From the UHGV virus genome UHGV-0814049: a stretch of 12,537 nucleotides of DNA. The stretch is one strand, 5' to 3'. The notes below the pieces were generated by a model. The model had not been told where the DNA came from. It made no database searches and saw nothing but the letters and a program-made list of their open reading frames with translations. Of the stretch, positions 2,114 through 12,537 are shown one piece after another. The stretch's first letter is position 1; every line of letters starts with the position of its first letter. This DNA is from a virus. A program made the translations under genes and the position numbers.

Positions 2114-2814
2114 CAGTCAATCAACCCATGAGTCCGTAATGCATCTTCCAGAGCTTTGATCCGCTGCCGCGCCTGCTGCAATCCTGTAGCCATAGCCGAC
2201 ACCTCAGACCGTGTGTATGTGGCACTTACCGTGTATGTCTGGTTAGCGTTGAATGAGCCGCGAAGAGCCGTACCTGTAGCCGCTGTCCACCCTGTCTGAC
2301 GAGCACCAATAACCTTGGTGCCGCCGACCGAATAGGATGTTGTTACATTGAGGGGAGATGCCAGCGATTGTGTTGCAGTGGCTGTTTTCGATACATAGTC
2401 GTCCTGTAATGCAGAAATGTTGCTCTCAGCAGTCGTAACCCGGCCATCAAGAGCGCTGACGTCAGCCTGTAAAGTGACTATTTCTCCTTCAGCCGTGGTT
2501 AGTCTGACATCCAGCGACGCGATTGCATTGGTATTTGCAGTAATACGGATTTCATGGTCGTCTACGTCGATGCGGAGCTGACGAATTCTTTCTTCGTGAT
2601 CGACCAGAATCACATCCTGCTCATCGTTCCTGACTTGTGCGTCATAAGCGCCCTGTCCGGCCTCGTTGGCCTTGTTCGCCACGTTACCAACATCAGTACC
2701 CTGTGCGATAACGTAAAGCAGATACGACTGCGAGAAGATATTGCGTGGAAGGATTGATGTATCGAGCCGCGTAGCTTGAATGATTACCGGCACATTGAGA
2801 TTCGAATCCGCCAT
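2113..2814 (-). CDS. tail needle / cell-envelope-penetrating protein, P22 gp26 family (233 aa)
   Basis: Translation [43 protein letters not shown]...LRTHGLID closely resembles P22 gp26 as I recall it, and has the same 233-aa length. Start overlaps the upstream stop (TAATG). Confidence 0.9.
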
Positions 2815-4233
2815 TACTCAATCCTTATCTGGCTGCCAGACAGAGTGACAGGTGACTTCGTGATAACGCGCAATTTGAAGCCAACATTTTTCCTGATGCG
2901 CCCTACTCGCTTCCACAAAACGCGTTTGTCGTAAACGAACGGTTCATTCTGCTCAATCATCTGCTCACGCCCGTAATTGATGCCGTCAGTGGTTGCAGAG
3001 AGAAAAAGGCGGTCAGCATACTGCGCAACGCCAGTTGACGACTCAACCTCAAGGTCGAAAACTCTGGCGTTATCCGCTTTGAACAACGGAGTAAACAGCA
3101 GGTGTTCCTGTTGCTTGTCGTACTGGCTGCTGATATCGAACTGCAATCTCCCTGTCATCGATTCAAGCTTATCGCCGCACGTAATTTGGTTGCCTTCGTA
3201 AATGAAGTCGATAGCGCGGTACACATCGTCATACAGGCCTGTTTTCAGTACACACCATTGCGGACCATTGGCGCTTGAAGATGCGTCGTACACGAGGACG
3301 TGGCGCGGCAGGTGAATAATCAGCAACTCATGAGCATCAAACCGCAACGATTCCATCACGCCATCAGCCAGTTCATCAGCAGTGTAGGAGCGGAGGATTT
3401 TCTCAATGCTCGCGCTGGCGATTGGTGATACCTGACCGGAGCCGATGATGTATACAGACGGCGCACCTGTTGCCGGATTGCTGATGAACGCATACGAGTC
3501 AGCAAACGGCGTTTTGCAGTAAGTTCCGGCGATGCCTTTTTGCACCATCAGTGATGGCTGTGCGACATACAAAGCAGCACCAACGGTGGTTGCACCTGTC
3601 AGGGAAAAATATTCAATCGTCGATGAACCAAAGCAGACGATGAAGTCTCGCCATGTCCCGATACCGATGATGCCGTCCGGCTGAGACTCGGCACGGATAT
3701 TGTGCACTGTAGCGGTCAGGATGCGATTCGTCTTCAAGGTCAGTGATAAACCATGAATCAGTTCCGTCTTTTGACCACGCATAACGCCCACGTAAGCGCG
3801 TAATATCGCGGACTGAGCCTAACTCATACTGTGTGAATCCGCTGTCTGTAGGCCAGTTTGAGACGGTTTTAACCGTGCCATCATAGCGATACTCGACCAG
3901 TTGACCATTAACGCCTACTGCCTGTGATGTCCTACCGTGTGCCATTGATACGCGACCACTTCCGGCAACATCACCGACCTCGCTTTCGCCCTTATACAGC
4001 TTGCCTCCGCACACGCGATATACAGCATTCTGCGCCATGTTGTACTCGACGCCTCGCGATACGCCGTTCACGTCAGAGCGTTTGGCAATGCCCGGGAATG
4101 AGCGAAGATATCCGCTGCTGTTCAGGATTTCTTTGGGTGTAGCCAGCATATTCACTGGCAGATAGTCGATATAGTCGGCATTTCGGAAGTCTTTGCCGAC
4201 ACCTTTCATGAGCGGAAGTTGCTGAATCGGCAT
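2814..4233 (-). pseudogene. gp10-like tail hub / head-completion protein, interrupted by an apparent +1 frameshift near 3694-3700
   Basis: Two overlapping minus-strand ORFs (3613..4233, 206 aa; 2814..3791, 325 aa) in different frames. The first starts MPIQQLPLMKGVGKDF... and reads like gp10 up to ...HPDRYSAQY (codon at 3697-3699); the second frame picks up the protein-like sequence at RAESQPDGIIGIGTWRDF (codon at 3693-3695). Joining gives 179+293 = 472 aa, the length of P22 gp10 as I recall it. Minus-strand text ...CAATATCCGTGCCGAG... would read Y-R-A-E if one C were removed. Could be a true inactivating mutation or an assembly/sequencing indel. Confidence 0.75.
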
Positions 4234-9369: not shown

Positions 9370-10785
9370 TCAACCTACACCACAAGGAATTGAGTAACTG
9401 GAATAGTCGGGTTGCGCAGCCGACTCCGGGCAATGCATACACATCATCAGCGCATCAGCCAGGTTAGGAGATGGAATACCGAGCTTCTGCTTCATATCGA
9501 CCTTAGTCATTAGCTCCAGCTTCCCGTTGTTATTGAATTTGCGCTGAATCTGCGTCAGTTCTGCAAACAGCTTCTCCAGCATATTCTCGCCTATCGCTTC
9601 TTTGTCGAAACTCAGCATGTCGTCGGGGTCTGCATACTCACCGTGGACAACCGCCCGATATGTCAGATACAGCCTGTCAGCCAGCACGTAATAGAATTGC
9701 GCTCGCTTATTGCGGAATATATCGCCAATAGTGCGAACGTTGTCGCCCTGTACGACTTCATCAGCCCATGCTCCGGCCTGATACGGTGCATCTTCATCGA
9801 ATGGCGATTCGCTGCCCTTGAACATCGTGGCGGTGATTTTCTTGCCGGAGAACGCTTCCGTTGTCTGTCTGCGTAGCCCGGCACCAACACCATCACCATC
9901 CCACAAGTAGTGGTCAGCGCCGTCTTCAATCGCCAGCGAAGTAGCCCAGTCAGCACCCTCGTTGATGTCCATCAGCAGACCTTCGGCAATGCGCTTAACT
10001 ACCGAACCGTGACGCGATGCATAACCTTTAGCATCTGGCCCTGTATCTGATGGGTCATGCGCAGAGACAACAGCGCCTTTCGCTTTCCATCCGAGTTTCT
10101 TGTGCGCATCGGTTGCGGCTTCAAGCCATTCACGTTTGATGATTGCCATATCACTTGCGCTTACTGGCTCACCAAGCCAGATGTGACGATACAGTGTCGG
10201 GTTTCTGCGTTTACACTCTTCCATCTCCAGACGGAGAACTTCAGGAAAGTGCGGGTTGTCGGTGTAGTTCACCGTCAGCAGACAAATATCATCAGGAGGG
10301 TTTACGACGAATCGCTGATAGGTATCGTCGAGGATGTTTTTCGGGTTGAAGCTCACCCATATTTCAGAGAACGGCTTACGGATGGTTGGTATCAGGATAT
10401 CCCACGATTCCTTTGTTACCGCTTCCGCTTCTTCCACCCAGCAGATATCAATACCTTCTAGCGATTTAATCTTCGTCGGGTTGTTTTTAATGCCGTAGAA
10501 CATGAATTCAGCATTCGTTCCGAGATGACGAATCATGGAACGCTGAATTTCAAACTCAGCCGAATACCCTTCCCGCTCTATGGTGTCTTCAAGCAACCGG
10601 ATTACCGAATCGCTGATACTGTTTTGCAGTTCACGAGCGCAGAGAATACGCACCGGCTGCCGACGCGCCGCTTCAACAAGCAGCCTCGCGATTGCCCATG
10701 ACTTACCGCTACCTCGACCGCCTTTGGCGACTTTATAGCGATGCGCCTCAATGAACGGTTCAAAGATAGGATTAATCGAGGTCAT
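9370..10785 (-). CDS. terminase large subunit (471 aa)
   Basis: N-terminal Walker A P-loop (KVAKGGRGSGKSW), then an ATPase region and a C-terminal nuclease-type region with conserved acidic residues. Start ATG overlaps the small-terminase stop (ATGA at 10782-10785). Length like Sf6-type TerL (~470 aa). Confidence 0.95.
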   Translation of the reverse strand: MTSINPIFEPFIEAHRYKVAKGGRGSGKSWAIARLLVEAARRQPVRILCARELQNSISDSVIRLLEDTIEREGYSAEFEIQRSMIRHLGTNAEFMFYGIKNNPTKIKSLEGIDICWVEEAEAVTKESWDILIPTIRKPFSEIWVSFNPKNILDDTYQRFVVNPPDDICLLTVNYTDNPHFPEVLRLEMEECKRRNPTLYRHIWLGEPVSASDMAIIKREWLEAATDAHKKLGWKAKGAVVSAHDPSDTGPDAKGYASRHGSVVKRIAEGLLMDINEGADWATSLAIEDGADHYLWDGDGVGAGLRRQTTEAFSGKKITATMFKGSESPFDEDAPYQAGAWADEVVQGDNVRTIGDIFRNKRAQFYYVLADRLYLTYRAVVHGEYADPDDMLSFDKEAIGENMLEKLFAELTQIQRKFNNNGKLELMTKVDMKQKLGIPSPNLADALMMCMHCPESAAQPDYSSYSIPCGVG

Positions 10786-11222
10786 TTTCCGAATAGAGTG
10801 CTCATCGGTGATGTTTCAATCTGGATTGCGCCGCCGTCTTTGCCTGTTAGCTCGTGATCAACCTTATCGCGCCATTTATCCTTCTGTCGGTTCTTAAGCC
10901 AGAAGATGGCGGCGGTTGTATCAGGCGGGTAATACTTCTCAAGCGGAGTTTCGACAATTCTGTTTTCAATAACACGAATATCGATGTCTGGAGCCACGAA
11001 GCCCATAGCGCGTTGATAAAGACGATCACTAACTTCTGCATCAGCGACGGCCTTACCCTTTTTTATGGACTCTAAAAACTCCGGATATTCCAATTTCCAA
11101 TTGTTGATTGTTGCCTCGCTAACTTCAAAGAAGTCCGCGAGTTCGGCGTCTGTATAGCCCAGCAAGCACAGTTTGCGTGCCTGTTCGGCATACGCCTCTT
11201 GATACTTCGTTGGGCGCGCCAT
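10782..11222 (-). CDS. terminase small subunit (146 aa)
   Basis: Immediately upstream of and translationally coupled to the large terminase. N-terminal HTH-like segment (LCLLGYTDAELADFFEVSEATINNW) typical of TerS DNA-binding domains. RBS GGAG upstream. Confidence 0.8.
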   Translation of the reverse strand: MARPTKYQEAYAEQARKLCLLGYTDAELADFFEVSEATINNWKLEYPEFLESIKKGKAVADAEVSDRLYQRAMGFVAPDIDIRVIENRIVETPLEKYYPPDTTAAIFWLKNRQKDKWRDKVDHELTGKDGGAIQIETSPMSTLFGK

Positions 11223-11224
11223 GT

Positions 11225-11467
11225 TTATGCTCCGGTAGTGAACAGGTCTAACGCTTCCTTCGATTTACGCACCGCTTCGATAGTGCGGGTCGTGATATCC
11301 GAATTAGCGCCGCCTGACTGGAAGTGAATTTTGAATAGCTCAAGCTTCAGTTCGTCAGTGCCGATGAATTGAAATGCTTCCTCTGCGGCTGCGTTCTGGT
11401 TCATGACCAGTTTGTAAATCTCTAACTGGAATTTCTGTTCTTCAGCCATGGGAATAATCTCTGCCAT
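11225..11467 (-). CDS. hypothetical protein (80 aa), translationally coupled to small terminase
   Basis: ATG at 11465-11467 with ACGGAG RBS 7 nt upstream. Stop (11225-11227) is 2 nt from the terS start (TAA-AC-ATG). Normal GC content. No recognisable domain. Confidence 0.6.
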   Translation of the reverse strand: MAEIIPMAEEQKFQLEIYKLVMNQNAAAEEAFQFIGTDELKLELFKIHFQSGGANSDITTRTIEAVRKSKEALDLFTTGA

Positions 11468-11714
11468 TGTTGGCTCCGTTTATCCGTTAAAAGGGATATC
11501 AGTTAAGTTATCCCGTGTAGGGTATAAGCCATTGTCGAGACCACTCATTGAATGGTCTCTGCAATAACCGATGTCTTTCCATCAGTCCGCCACCACAAAG
11601 AATCTTTTTTGCCATAAGGCTGGAGGTTCATCTCTCAGTGGCTGCCAGTGTTATTTCCCCACTTACTGGCTTGGGTTGTTTCGCTGTACTGCCGTTAATT
11701 GGTGAGTCCGGGGA

Positions 11715-12200
11715 TTATTTCAGTTCGTTACCAGGCATTTCTTTTAGCTCTTTCAAATGACAACGATTGAGACTAAACCACTCCCCGTGCGACCTATAGT
11801 TGTAATATTTTTGGTGCAATTTGGTTTCAAGCTCTCTATCGGCCGGAATCTTTGCAATTAGATTTAGCTTCCCACCACTCATGCGATATATCTCTGAAAT
11901 TCGTTTATTAACCCTGCGACTAAACCCTATTTTTGTTAGCCCACTATCTTCAGCATGCAGAACGTACACATATGATTTTTGCGAAGCACTGGGTGCGACT
12001 TTGTTGTAATTAATCATGTCAAACATGAAGCCTTGCTTTAGCAAAGTTTCAAAAAAGATAGAATTAACACACCCATTCCTTCTCAGCTCTGCACTTAGCT
12101 TGTCAATTTCCTCTATGATGTCGCCAGACCCCTTTCCACTTATAAGAAAATCTTGGTACATGCGACCAATTCTTGAGGTAATTTCAACAAAGTTATTCAT
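11715..12200 (-). CDS. T5orf172 / GIY-YIG-like domain protein (161 aa) in an AT-richer island; unknown N-terminal ~75 aa
   Basis: C-terminal half has YVYVLHAEDSGLTKIGFS ... R..KRISEI ... ELETKLHQKYYNYR ... GEWFSL, matching the conserved pattern of the T5orf172 domain (YxYxL-KIG-R-E-GEWF) as I recall it. The gene is visibly AT-rich with frequent AGA/AGG/ATA/AAA codons, unlike the flanking phage genes. Separated from the packaging operon by a ~250-nt noncoding gap. Confidence 0.75.
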   Translation of the reverse strand: MNNFVEITSRIGRMYQDFLISGKGSGDIIEEIDKLSAELRRNGCVNSIFFETLLKQGFMFDMINYNKVAPSASQKSYVYVLHAEDSGLTKIGFSRRVNKRISEIYRMSGGKLNLIAKIPADRELETKLHQKYYNYRSHGEWFSLNRCHLKELKEMPGNELK

Positions 12201-12393
12201 AGCGTTTACCTTTTAGAAAGATGAGCCTGTTCGCACAGAAAAGCCGTCCCCGAGATGGTCGCCACCATATACGGCAATTCTCAGGCTCAGCTTTCTGAAA
12301 GACTCGGGATTGTTACGCGCTGCGATGCGCGGTTTACTGCAGATGTAAAAAAGCCCCGCGAATACGAGGCTAAATCCTGGTATTTGTAATGAC

Positions 12394-12537
12394 TGGCTCT
12401 TATCTCAACGCAGCAACTCACAAGACGGGATCGTGAAAGAAATCAAAGGCGCGGACACGTTCATCTTTGGTCATACGCCAGCAGTGAAACCACTTAAATT
12501 TGCCAACCAAATGTATATCGATACCGGAGCAGTGTTC
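12394..12537 (+). pseudogene. 3' fragment of a lambda-type Ser/Thr protein phosphatase (NinI/PrpA family), lacking the catalytic N-terminus
   Basis: Plus frame reads ...[48 protein letters not shown] to the window end, matching the C-terminal region of lambda phosphatase as I recall it. The same frame has a TAA at 12346-12348 and no ATG upstream of the homologous part, so the metal-binding N-terminal motifs are absent. Confidence 0.6.

What the first reader, a model, noticed from the sequence alone, without database searches (positions are those of the whole stretch)
12221..12537. Opposite-strand remnants (NinH-like ORF plus 5'-truncated Ser/Thr phosphatase) abutting the moron: composite or decaying prophage junction
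On the plus strand a short frame (12225..12389, ATG at 12255) reads ...AVPEMVATIYGNSQAQLSERLGIVTRCDARF..., loosely resembling lambda NinH as I recall it (…IPDMLVEAYGNQTEVARRL…). Only a few nt after its stop, a different frame encodes just the C-terminal ~48 aa of a lambda-type phosphatase (homology starts near W at 12394). In lambda ninH and ninI are adjacent, so this looks like a nin-region fragment with an internal deletion, oriented away from the morphogenesis operon. Together with the absence of Q/holin/endolysin genes upstream of terS on the minus strand and the gp10 frameshift, this suggests either a rearranged defective prophage or two prophage pieces joined here.
Basis: partly seen in the sequence, partly recalled or inferred. 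Interest (0 to 1): 0.45.

Follow-up and report, generated by a model that had tools for sequence, protein, structure and literature searches.

The report
Prophage breakpoint beside conserved leader RNA
The supposed NinH-like gene is a conserved non-coding RNA leader plus a terminator of P22-like phages. The phosphatase piece is real and marks a one-off breakpoint where the phage's lysis genes should be, which is an ordinary sign of a rearranged prophage or of an assembly boundary.

Summary
The plus-strand ORF at 12255-12389 exists, but it is not a NinH remnant. Window 11500-12414 is 99% identical and collinear with epsilon34, g341c and about 55 E. coli P22-like prophages. In those, 12201-12404 is the intergenic stretch between the lysis cassette and the accessory-gene ("moron") slot.

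That stretch holds a rho-independent terminator (12371->12352, minus strand) and a roughly 125-nt structured leader (12322->12195, minus strand). The leader sits directly upstream of rha, ant, KilA-N or, here, GIY-YIG genes in at least 145 phage records. Its helices covary. In P22 it coincides with the published small RNA "P22F", which has no known function.

The phosphatase fragment is real. Window 12411-12537 is 127/127 identical to nt 495-621 (aa 166-207 of 223) of a prophage Ser/Thr phosphatase gene, in inverted orientation. It joins the P22-like sequence through a 4-nt microhomology (CAGC, 12411-12414), 7-10 nt inside the small gene that follows Rz. I found this junction in no other sequence searched.

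The most likely cause is illegitimate recombination, either an inversion or a join of two prophages, which cuts the head genes off from Q, the late promoter and the lysis genes. An assembly or chimera artefact is not excluded, because the fragment is exactly 127 nt, a common assembler k-mer length. Interest is low for the junction and moderate for the RNA.

The parts
11715..12200 (-). GIY-YIG / T5orf172-type nuclease gene (161 aa). This is the accessory gene ('moron') occupying the slot that holds rha, KilA-N, ant or other genes in related phages.
   Evidence: ORF. Pfam MUG113 4.8e-13 and T5orf172 2.6e-9. Annotated as a GIY-YIG nuclease family protein in E. coli prophages and epsilon34.
12195..12322 (-). 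Structured leader RNA directly upstream of the moron's start codon, homologous to the P22 rha leader / sncRNA 'P22F'.
- Helix A: 12301-12272 pairs with 12246-12210.
- Apical hairpin: 12268-12264 pairs with 12259-12255, loop GGCG.
- Helix B: 12308-12303 pairs with 12254-12249.
- Shine-Dalgarno AAAGG at 12213-12209; start codon at 12200-12198.
   Evidence: Fold -61.4 kcal/mol, z = -2.8. Conserved in 145 phage records and at least 120 IMG/VR contigs. Homology with rha-carrying phages stops at the start codon. Covariance model R1 scores 149.4 bits here and 55.4 bits on P22. Pair counts: 98.9% of cells paired and 14/31 pairs changed on both sides; helix B 6/6 pairs changed on both sides. The P22F sequence lies on the P22 copy.
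12255..12389 (+). It is an antisense reading frame across the leader RNA and the terminator, and most likely not a gene.
   Evidence: ORF. No Pfam hit at E<=10. tblastn finds no ninH. The frame is broken or has lost its start in homologs. It is not annotated by PGAP in E. coli prophages or in epsilon34. A few phage records annotate it automatically as a hypothetical protein.
12346..12371 (-). Rho-independent terminator downstream of the lysis cassette: stem AGCCUCGU/GCGGGGCU, loop AUUC, followed by a U-run.
   Evidence: Found by the pattern scan. Annotated as a rho-independent terminator at the same place in epsilon34 and phi80. The stem differs but stays complementary among phages: GCCUCG/CGGGGC, GCCCGG/CCGGGC, GCCAGC/GCUGGC, GCCUGAC/GUCGGGC.
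12405..12414 (-). Last 10 nt (two codons plus one base, and the stop) of the 50-aa gene that follows Rz (similar to Sf6 gene 65 and epsilon34 gene 67). The rest of that gene and everything upstream of it are missing.
   Evidence: The CDS in relatives corresponds to window 12405-12557.
12411..12414 (.). Breakpoint: the 4-nt microhomology CAGC is shared by both parental sequences.
   Evidence: The window is identical to the canonical P22-like sequence through 12414 and to the phosphatase gene from 12411. The junction is absent from all collections searched.
12411..12537 (+). Internal fragment of a lambdoid Ser/Thr phosphatase gene (nt 495-621; residues S166-F207 of 223), inverted relative to the normal P22-like gene order. 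It has no start codon before GVG... position 12433 (a GTG) and lacks all N-terminal metal-binding motifs, so it is a pseudogene fragment.
   Evidence: 127/127 identity to the NCCP15648 gene. The Metallophos domain spans residues 14-187 of the full protein. The fragment alone gives no Pfam hit.

Best explanation
Two unrelated things abut here.

**1. Window 12201-12404 is ordinary, intact, non-coding sequence of a P22-like late operon, read on the minus strand.**
- It holds the terminator that follows the lysis genes.
- It then holds a roughly 125-nt structured leader that runs up to the start codon of whatever accessory gene sits in this slot (here a GIY-YIG nuclease).
- The leader can form a long hairpin (helix A) whose base pairs with four of the five Shine-Dalgarno bases.
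- It can also form a second helix (B) that cannot coexist with a full helix A. By inference, the leader sets how much of the downstream, often toxic, gene is translated from the late transcript, or marks a processing site that yields the stable small RNA seen in P22.
- The 'NinH-like' ORF is the antisense reading of this RNA.

**2. At 12411-12414 the phage sequence breaks.**
- Through a 4-nt microhomology it is joined to the inside of a phosphatase gene in the opposite orientation.
- The likeliest cause is one illegitimate-recombination event. This could be an inversion of the roughly 3-kb phosphatase-Q-lysis segment of the same prophage, or a deletion or inversion joining two oppositely oriented lambdoid prophages.
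- The result is a dead phosphatase stub. The packaging and head genes are separated from the late promoter, Q and the lysis genes, so the prophage would be defective.

Shown: collinearity, the breakpoint position, the truncation, the RNA covariation. Inferred: the mechanism of the rearrangement, the defectiveness, and the function of the RNA.
For: **Intergenic identity of 12201-12404**
- Window 11500-12414 is 99% identical and collinear to about 55 E. coli prophages and to epsilon34 and g341c. In those, 12201-12404 is intergenic with an annotated terminator.

**The breakpoint**
- Collinearity ends at 12414. Window 12411-12537 is 127/127 identical to phosphatase nt 495-621 on the other strand. 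The upstream 31 nt are unrelated to the phosphatase gene (8/31).
- In normal relatives the phosphatase lies about 3 kb further on, on the minus strand.
- The junction is absent from 5,426 complete E. coli genomes, genome contigs, metagenome contigs, IMG/VR and 160 fetched loci. The canonical continuation is present in 51 loci, including the only contig that encodes the identical GIY-YIG protein.

**The leader RNA**
- It is conserved upstream of rha, ant, KilA-N and GIY-YIG genes.
- Pair counts: helix A plus apical hairpin, 98.9% paired with 14/31 pairs changed on both sides and 0/500 shuffles as good. Helix B, 6/6 pairs changed on both sides.
- Helix B occurs in six different complementary versions in the raw sequences.
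- G.U pairs favour the minus (mRNA) sense: 11 against 2, plus three G.U pairs in the P22 helix.
- P22F, an 89-nt RNA detected in infected cells, ends 6 nt before the rha ATG and maps onto the P22 copy (PMC13397905).
Against: **The junction**
- Nothing beyond 12537 can be seen. The reciprocal junction, the identity of the partner (same or second prophage) and read support are all unknown.
- The phosphatase part is exactly 127 nt. That is the length expected if the window is a de Bruijn contig (k=127) that ends at the first k-mer shared with another phosphatase copy. The window end is then an assembly boundary, and a chimeric-read origin of the join cannot be excluded. Inverted, nearby, microhomology joins are also typical amplification chimeras (my own knowledge).

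**The RNA**
- The covariation counts were made on alignments fitted to each structure.
- Most sequences are near-identical, so the support comes from about 6-8 divergent lineages.
- Helix B is not the minimum-energy fold: -28.3 against -42.1 kcal/mol.
- No promoter-like site was found between the terminator and the gene.
- No experiment links the leader to regulation.
Confidence: 0.72

Rival explanations
1. The region is a nin-region remnant on the plus strand: a decayed ninH followed by ninI (phosphatase) with an internal deletion that removed the 3' end of ninH and the first two-thirds of the phosphatase.
For: A local resemblance to NinH of 9/22 identities at the same N-terminal offset. ninH and the phosphatase gene are adjacent and overlapping in real prophages. 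The phosphatase fragment is genuine.
Against: - Window 12201-12414 is 99% identical to the intergenic region after the lysis genes in intact phages. It continues there into the small post-Rz gene, not into nin genes.
- There is no Pfam NinH hit at E<=10, whereas a real NinH scores 149.5 bits.
- tblastn finds no ninH in 50,697 phage records.
- The ORF is broken in homologs.
- The sequence is constrained as an RNA structure on the opposite strand.
- The breakpoint is 22 nt downstream of the ORF's stop, inside a different gene's 3' end.
Confidence: 0.03
2. The junction is not biological. It would be an assembly or library artefact: a chimeric read or amplification fold-back, or a contig that runs k bases into a repeat node. 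In that case the prophage in the real genome carries the normal Rz-lysis-Q continuation.
For: - The phosphatase stretch is exactly 127 nt (12411-12537), counted from the first base shared with phosphatase genes to the last base of the window. 127 is a standard maximal assembler k-mer (my own knowledge).
- Draft contigs of related prophages often end in this same region (L155, L156, L159).
- The junction is seen nowhere else.
- The two joined points lie only about 3 kb apart, in inverted orientation, in a normal prophage. That is the usual geometry of amplification chimeras.
Against: - A 4-nt overlap cannot cause a de Bruijn mis-join at large k. The junction k-mers must therefore exist in reads.
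- If the canonical continuation were also present, the contig should have stopped or branched at 12414 instead of running through it. This is an inference about assembly graphs, not tested.
- The gp10 frameshift in the same window independently suggests a decaying prophage.
Confidence: 0.22
3. The plus-strand ORF (12255-12389) is a real small protein gene of unknown function, transcribed divergently from the moron.
For: - The ATG and the first 18 codons are conserved in most homologs, and three of the five substitutions seen in that stretch are synonymous (my reading).
- Some phage records annotate it as a hypothetical protein.
Against: - The start codon is lost in phi80, Gally, klb_E and Providencia-type copies.
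- The stop position varies from 19 to 44 codons, and an 11-nt deletion occurs in one Stx phage.
- No sigma-70-like promoter was found.
- Conservation is explained by the covarying RNA helices on the other strand.
- The frame has no family match.
Confidence: 0.04

Closest known systems
P22 small non-coding RNA 'P22F' / the rha (ORF201) leader of P22 and phi80 (PMC13397905, 2026; rha genetics: Henthorn & Friedman 1995, cited in PMC4936722)
   Same: - Same position: after the post-lysis terminator, ending a few nt before the start codon of the slot gene, on the late-operon strand.
- Model R1 built from the window's family hits P22 at 55.4 bits (E 2.6e-12), overlapping P22F.
- Same helix A, GGCG-loop apical hairpin and helix B, with compensating sequence differences.
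   Different: - The window copy is the commoner sequence type: 87-99% identical across Stx phages, phi80 and Klebsiella/Enterobacter phages.
- It precedes a GIY-YIG nuclease gene instead of rha.
- Expression of this copy has not been shown.
- The paper gives P22F no structure or function. The covarying two-helix architecture is my inference.
Lambda NinH (Pfam PF06322, Phage_NinH)
   Same: A 22-residue local resemblance (K-x-[IV]-P-[DE]-M ... Y-G-N ... R-L), 9 identities.
   Different: - No profile match.
- No start codon at the aligned N-terminus.
- Wrong genomic context and wrong strand.
- Not conserved as an ORF.
- The DNA is an RNA-structure element of the opposite strand.
Lambda-type Ser/Thr protein phosphatase (NinI / PP-lambda; Pfam Metallophos PF00149) of lambdoid prophages
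   Same: Residues 166-207 are encoded with 100% nucleotide identity to E. coli prophage genes, including the GHTP motif.
   Different: - Lacks residues 1-165, including the GDLHG, GDLVDRG and GNHE motifs and the start codon.
- Inverted relative to the neighbouring late genes.
- It is a gene fragment, not a gene.
Structured mRNA leaders that gate translation by folding. Examples, from my own knowledge: the lambda N leader RNase III hairpin, and the delayed folding of the MS2 maturation-gene leader.
   Same: A long hairpin ends at the ribosome-binding site, and an alternative pairing can form earlier during transcription. The element lies inside a polycistronic phage transcript, upstream of a gene whose product is harmful if over-made.
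   Different: No sequence relationship. No evidence here for RNase III cleavage or kinetic trapping. This is an analogy of mechanism only.
Rearranged or decaying lambdoid prophages (general class)
   Same: Truncated gene fragments, loss of the lysis/Q module, and a frameshifted structural gene (gp10).
   Different: This particular junction (post-Rz gene codon -3 joined to phosphatase codon 165/166, inverted) was not found in any other genome searched.

Membership tests
Phage NinH (PF06322) | Significant match to the NinH profile | tested here: not met
   No Pfam family at E<=10 for the 54-aa frame. A genuine NinH scores 149.5 bits, E 2.4e-44.
Phage NinH (PF06322) | Complete ORF of about 60-68 aa with a start at the aligned N-terminus | tested here: not met
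   There is a stop codon immediately before ACSHRK. The first ATG (12255) lies after the aligned K-x-V-P-E residues. The ORF has 44 codons.
Phage NinH (PF06322) | Location in the nin region, between ninG (or rusA) and the phosphatase or Q gene, on the same strand | tested here: not met
   In relatives this DNA lies between the lysis cassette and the moron and terS genes. Their true ninH lies more than 3 kb away, on the strand opposite to the window's plus-strand frame.
Phage NinH (PF06322) | Reading frame conserved among homologous loci | tested here: not met
   Premature TGA in Stx-type copies, ATG lost in phi80, Gally and klb_E, and a frame-shifting T12247 present in only 33 of 132 loci.
Lambda-type Ser/Thr phosphatase (Metallophos, PF00149) | Sequence identity to phosphatase genes | tested here: met
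   127/127 nt identical to nt 495-621 of WP_001271133.1's gene. 1,149 E. coli records match.
Lambda-type Ser/Thr phosphatase (Metallophos, PF00149) | Complete catalytic domain with the metal-binding motifs GDxHG, GDxVDRG and GNHE, and a start codon | tested here: not met
   The domain spans residues 14-187. The window has only residues 166-207. The 31 nt upstream are unrelated (8/31). The fragment alone gives no Pfam hit.
rha-type leader RNA (P22F-like element; no Rfam family) | Match to a covariance model of the element | tested here: met
   149.4 bits, E about 1e-37, at 12322-12195 on the minus strand. This is partly circular because the window sequence is in the seed. Independent members not in the seed also match: P22 at 55.4 bits, the ant-leader copy L007:3827-3952 at 48.9 bits and L145 at 53.3 bits. 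Rfam 15 has no match at E<=1.
rha-type leader RNA (P22F-like element; no Rfam family) | Helices A and B and the apical hairpin maintained by compensatory changes | tested here: met
   98.9% and 99.4% of cells paired, 14/31 and 9/11 pairs changed on both sides, 0/500 shuffles as good, and slid controls 28-54% paired. Caveat: the alignments were fitted to the models. The raw sequences show helix B as CCCGAG/CUCGGG, CGAGAG/CUCUCG, CCAAGAG/CUCUUGG, CACAGA/UCUGUG, AGAGAG/CUCUCU and CCACCGA/UCGGUGG.
rha-type leader RNA (P22F-like element; no Rfam family) | Position between the post-lysis terminator and the start codon of the slot gene, on the late-operon strand | tested here: met
rha-type leader RNA (P22F-like element; no Rfam family) | Expressed as RNA and functional in regulation | not testable with these tools
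   The only evidence is the P22 RNA-seq and RT-PCR detection of P22F (PMC13397905).
Rho-independent terminator | GC-rich stem-loop followed by a U-run, conserved in position | tested here: met
   8-bp stem with 5 GC pairs, then TTTTTT. Annotated in epsilon34 and phi80. The stem covaries among phages.
Assembly-boundary artefact (contig ending k bases into a repeat) | The terminal shared stretch equals the assembler's k, and another copy of the repeat exists in the same genome | not testable with these tools
   The length is 127 nt. The assembler, the reads and the rest of the genome are not available.

The most novel reading that the evidence does not exclude
The 12195-12322 element is a member of a widespread leader RNA of lambdoid phages that Rfam does not list. 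It sits in front of antirepressor-like or other harmful accessory genes (rha, ant, KilA-N, GIY-YIG). It switches between two mutually exclusive, covariation-supported folds: a long hairpin that covers the ribosome-binding site, and helix B. In this way it would gate translation of the downstream gene within the late transcript, and it would be the source of the stable small RNA P22F.
Probability: 0.4. Interest if true: 0.55.

Novelty: new member of a known kind. Interest (0 to 1): 0.25.

Why it matters
**For annotation**
- It removes a false 'NinH-like' pseudogene call.
- It places the prophage breakpoint to within 4 nt.
- If the junction is real, the head and packaging genes in this window are cut off from their promoter, Q and the lysis genes. 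Together with the gp10 frameshift, that predicts a non-inducible, decaying prophage.

**More generally**
- A plausible-looking short ORF can be the antisense shadow of a conserved structured RNA.
- The leader itself is the more interesting object. It is shared across P22-like, Stx, phi80-like, Klebsiella, Enterobacter and Providencia phages, marks a hot spot for accessory-gene exchange, has a detected RNA product in P22, and has no assigned function.

Tried and rejected
**Looking for the junction elsewhere. All searches were negative.**
- Exact 41-mer and 24-mer scans of genome contigs, metagenome contigs and IMG/VR.
- megablast of 12201-12537 against 5,426 complete E. coli genomes: no record covers at least 80% of the query.
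- A 16-mer scan of all 160 fetched loci.

**Looking for the source assembly by exact protein**
- The GIY-YIG protein is on only one Logan contig, and that contig has the canonical continuation.
- The frameshifted gp10 fragment and terL are not on record.
- Contigs carrying the terS and DUF2560 proteins all have the normal lysis cassette.

**Testing NinH homology.** Pfam at E<=10, pairwise BLASTP and tblastn against phages gave no support.

**Testing for a known RNA family.** An Rfam 15 scan of 11000-12537 at E<=1 found nothing.

**Structural alternatives rejected**
- The MFE version of the apical hairpin (GGUGG/CCAUC). Covariation supports ATGGT/ACCAT with a tetraloop instead.
- A local CUUUCAGAAAG hairpin. 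It is not conserved in Providencia or phi80.
- A pseudoknot with full helices A and B together. It is geometrically impossible with 1-2 nt linkers across a roughly 30-bp helix (inference).

**Other**
- The MAFFT alignment A1 misaligns single-base indels, so I used model-based alignments for the counts, with that caveat.
- Henthorn & Friedman 1995 (PMC177009) could not be read.
- The promoter scan found no sigma-70-like site in 11200-12537.
Full report
**What the window is.** The window carries the late region of a P22-like (Lederbergvirus-type) prophage on the minus strand: ejection and tail genes, gp10, coat, scaffold, portal, and then the genes below.

| Feature | Coordinates |
|---|---|
| terL | 9370-10785 |
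| terS | 10782-11222 |
| DUF2560 gene | 11225-11467 |
| GIY-YIG/T5orf172 'moron' | 11715-12200 |

The best complete E. coli genomes match at about 96% identity and only up to position 12414.

**Checking the observation.**
- The phosphatase part holds up fully. Window 12411-12537 is 127/127 identical to nt 495-621 of a 672-nt prophage Ser/Thr phosphatase gene (E. coli NCCP15648, WP_001271133.1), which encodes S166-F207 of 223 residues.
- The 31 nt before 12411 share 8/31 bases with the gene, which is chance level.
- The full protein's Metallophos domain covers residues 14-187. The fragment therefore keeps only the GHTP motif and has no start codon before a GTG at 12433.
- The homology starts at 12411, not at the tryptophan near 12394.

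**The 'NinH-like' ORF.**
- Pairwise BLASTP against a real NinH gives 9/22 identities and 23.1 bits. By my arithmetic that score is expected about once by chance when the six frames of about 317 nt are compared with a lambda proteome that I took, from memory, to be about 14,500 aa.
- Pfam finds nothing at E<=10, while a real NinH scores 149.5 bits.
- tblastn against 50,697 phage records at E<=10 finds 127 records. The 40 listed are all the same intergenic locus in other phages or short weak matches with no ninH annotated, and none is a ninH gene.

**What 12201-12404 really is.**
- Window 11500-12414 is 98.7-99.3% identical and collinear with about 55 E. coli prophages and with Salmonella phages epsilon34 and g341c.
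- In those, the stretch equivalent to 12201-12404 is intergenic. It lies between the 50-aa gene that follows Rz and the GIY-YIG gene.
- epsilon34 annotates a rho-independent terminator at the position equal to window 12347-12370. The pattern scan finds it at 12371->12352, followed by a T-run. Its stem differs but stays complementary among phages.
- The remaining roughly 150 nt are conserved far beyond P22-like phages. There are 145 phage records, including Stx1/Stx2 phages, phi80, HK639, HK106 and Klebsiella, Enterobacter, Hafnia and Providencia phages, and at least 120 IMG/VR contigs.
- In every annotated locus I fetched, this sequence lies between the lysis genes and a gene of the rha, KilA-N or ant type.
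- Similarity to the window stops at the start codon of that gene. The region is therefore a leader module that stays in place while the downstream gene is exchanged.

**The leader is a structured RNA on the minus (late-operon) strand.**
- It folds into a long hairpin (helix A: 12301-12272 with 12246-12210) capped by a small hairpin with a GGCG loop (12268-12264 with 12259-12255). The fold energy is -61.4 kcal/mol, z = -2.8.
- The base of helix A pairs with AAAG of the Shine-Dalgarno AAAGG at 12213-12209, nine nt before the ATG.
- A second helix (B: 12308-12303 CCCGAG with 12254-12249 CUCGGG) joins the segment just 5' of helix A to the segment just 3' of the apical hairpin.
- A covariance model of helix A plus the apical hairpin recovered all homologs. 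It also recovered divergent copies that were not in the seed: upstream of ant in an Stx phage (L007:3827-3952), upstream of a KilA-N gene (L145), two more copies (L132, L014), and phage P22 itself.

| Structure counted | Cells paired | Pairs changed on both sides | Shuffles as good | Slid controls paired |
|---|---|---|---|---|
| Helix A + apical hairpin | 98.9% | 14 of 31 | 0/500 | 41-54% |
| Helix B + apical hairpin | 99.4% | 9 of 11 (helix B: 6 of 6) | 0/500 | 28-54% |

- These alignments were fitted to the structures, which inflates the counts. The raw sequences nevertheless show helix B in six different complementary versions.
- G.U pairs favour the mRNA sense, 11 against 2. The P22 helix has three G.U pairs.
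- Helices A and B cannot both be fully formed. One- and two-nucleotide linkers would have to span a roughly 30-bp helix (inference from geometry).
- Helix A is the stable fold (-42.1 kcal/mol). A fold constrained to include helix B reaches -28.3 kcal/mol.
- Rfam 15 has no match at E<=1.

**Link to published work.**
- A 2026 paper reports ten small RNAs from P22-infected Salmonella. 'P22F' is 89 nt, lies at AF217253 21301-21389, ends 6 nt before the rha ATG, and has no known function (PMC13397905).
- That sequence lies exactly on the P22 copy of this element. An RNA from this element therefore exists in at least one phage.
- rha is known to be harmful to phage growth in IHF-defective hosts and to be regulated by IHF (Henthorn & Friedman 1995, as summarised in PMC4936722). 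I could not read the original paper.

**Why the plus-strand ORF is not a gene.**
- Its ATG is the 5' arm of the apical hairpin.
- phi80, Gally, klb_E and Providencia-type copies lack that ATG.
- Stx-type copies hit TGA after ...SERLG.
- One copy has an 11-nt deletion.
- The residues 'KAV' before the ATG depend on an extra T12247 that 99 of 132 loci lack.
- PGAP and the epsilon34 authors do not annotate it. A few automatic annotations do.

**The junction.**
- The window follows the canonical sequence through 12414 (...CTCAACGCAGC) and the phosphatase gene from 12411 (CAGCAACTCAC...). The two share CAGC.
- On the phage side the break is 7-10 nt inside the 3' end of the small post-Rz gene, whose stop-codon complement is at 12405-12407. 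On the other side it falls at phosphatase codon 165/166.
- In normal relatives the phosphatase lies about 3 kb to the right on the minus strand, followed leftwards by Q, holin, endolysin, Rz and the small gene. The window shows one end of what could be either of two events:
  - an inversion of exactly that segment, or
  - a join to a second, oppositely oriented lambdoid prophage.
- Either event would separate the packaging and head genes from the late promoter, Q and the lysis genes. Together with the one-base insertion that splits gp10, this fits a defective prophage.
- The junction occurs nowhere else that I could search. The only contig with the identical GIY-YIG protein continues canonically.

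**A caution about the junction.**
- The phosphatase stretch is exactly 127 nt, from the first shared base to the last base of the window. That is what a de Bruijn assembler with k=127 produces when a contig ends at the first k-mer shared with another path.
- The window is therefore probably a contig end, and the genome probably has another copy of this phosphatase sequence.
- This does not make the junction false, because a 4-nt overlap cannot cause a mis-join at that k. It does mean the join rests on reads I cannot inspect.
- Inverted, nearby, microhomology joins are also the usual form of amplification chimeras (my own knowledge). I put about 0.2 on an artefact.

**Verdict.**
The phosphatase fragment, its orientation and the missing lysis module hold up. 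The NinH resemblance does not.
There is a rearranged or composite prophage junction, but it is not a ninH-ninI deletion remnant.
- The junction is an ordinary kind of event.
- The leader RNA is the more interesting by-product. It belongs to a family with one published, uncharacterised member (P22F) and no Rfam entry, and its architecture suggests translational gating of the downstream accessory gene. That function is inferred, not shown.

Noticed in passing
window 12195-12322 (minus); also L007:3827-3952, L132:3859-3978, L014:8524-8628, L145:4946-5077, L161:575-701: A conserved structured leader RNA with two covarying, mutually exclusive helices sits upstream of rha, ant, KilA-N or GIY-YIG genes in many lambdoid phages. 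Some phages carry a second, divergent copy in front of another antirepressor-type gene. It is not in Rfam 15. The P22 copy coincides with the published sncRNA P22F.
   Followed up: yes
window 12411-12537: The phosphatase-identical stretch is exactly 127 nt and runs to the last base of the window. This suggests the window is a de Bruijn contig (k=127) that ends at a repeat shared with another phosphatase copy in the same genome.
   Followed up: partly
window about 3695 (gp10 gene, 2814-4233, minus): One extra G relative to E. coli SCU-109 splits gp10 into two overlapping ORFs (2814-3791 and 3613-4233). The site is not a long homopolymer. Whether it is a real mutation or a sequencing error cannot be told.
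   Followed up: partly
window 11532-11615 (minus): epsilon34 annotates the equivalent stretch as 'similar to the N-terminus of phage ST64T orf118'. It would be a remnant of an earlier occupant, downstream of the GIY-YIG gene. I did not analyse it further.
   Followed up: no
loci L140-L159 (slot between the small post-Rz gene and the DUF2560 gene): The same slot holds very different accessory genes in otherwise similar prophages: Rha, KilA-N, Tad2-like (PF11195), Phage_gp49_66, GIY-YIG/T5orf172, or nothing. Model R1 gave no hit in the Tad2-like and gp49_66 loci that I searched (L140, L141, L147).
   Followed up: partly
L161 (P22, AF217253) 627-1232: P22 ORF201 (rha) is annotated from a GTG inside the leader hairpin. 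The start conserved across homologs is the ATG 69 nt downstream (MNELIANHDF...). phi80 and the Klebsiella phage Chronis have similarly over-extended rha annotations.
   Followed up: partly
L004 (g341c) 1789-1959, equal to window 12213-12383 (minus): g341c annotates a 56-aa minus-strand 'gene 63' across the leader and terminator. In the window that frame contains stop codons, so this too is probably not a gene.
   Followed up: partly
window 12323-12345 (minus): A small GC hairpin (CGCGC AUCGCA GCGCG) lies between the terminator and the leader. It is present in variant form in most homologs and in P22. I did not test it for covariation.
   Followed up: no
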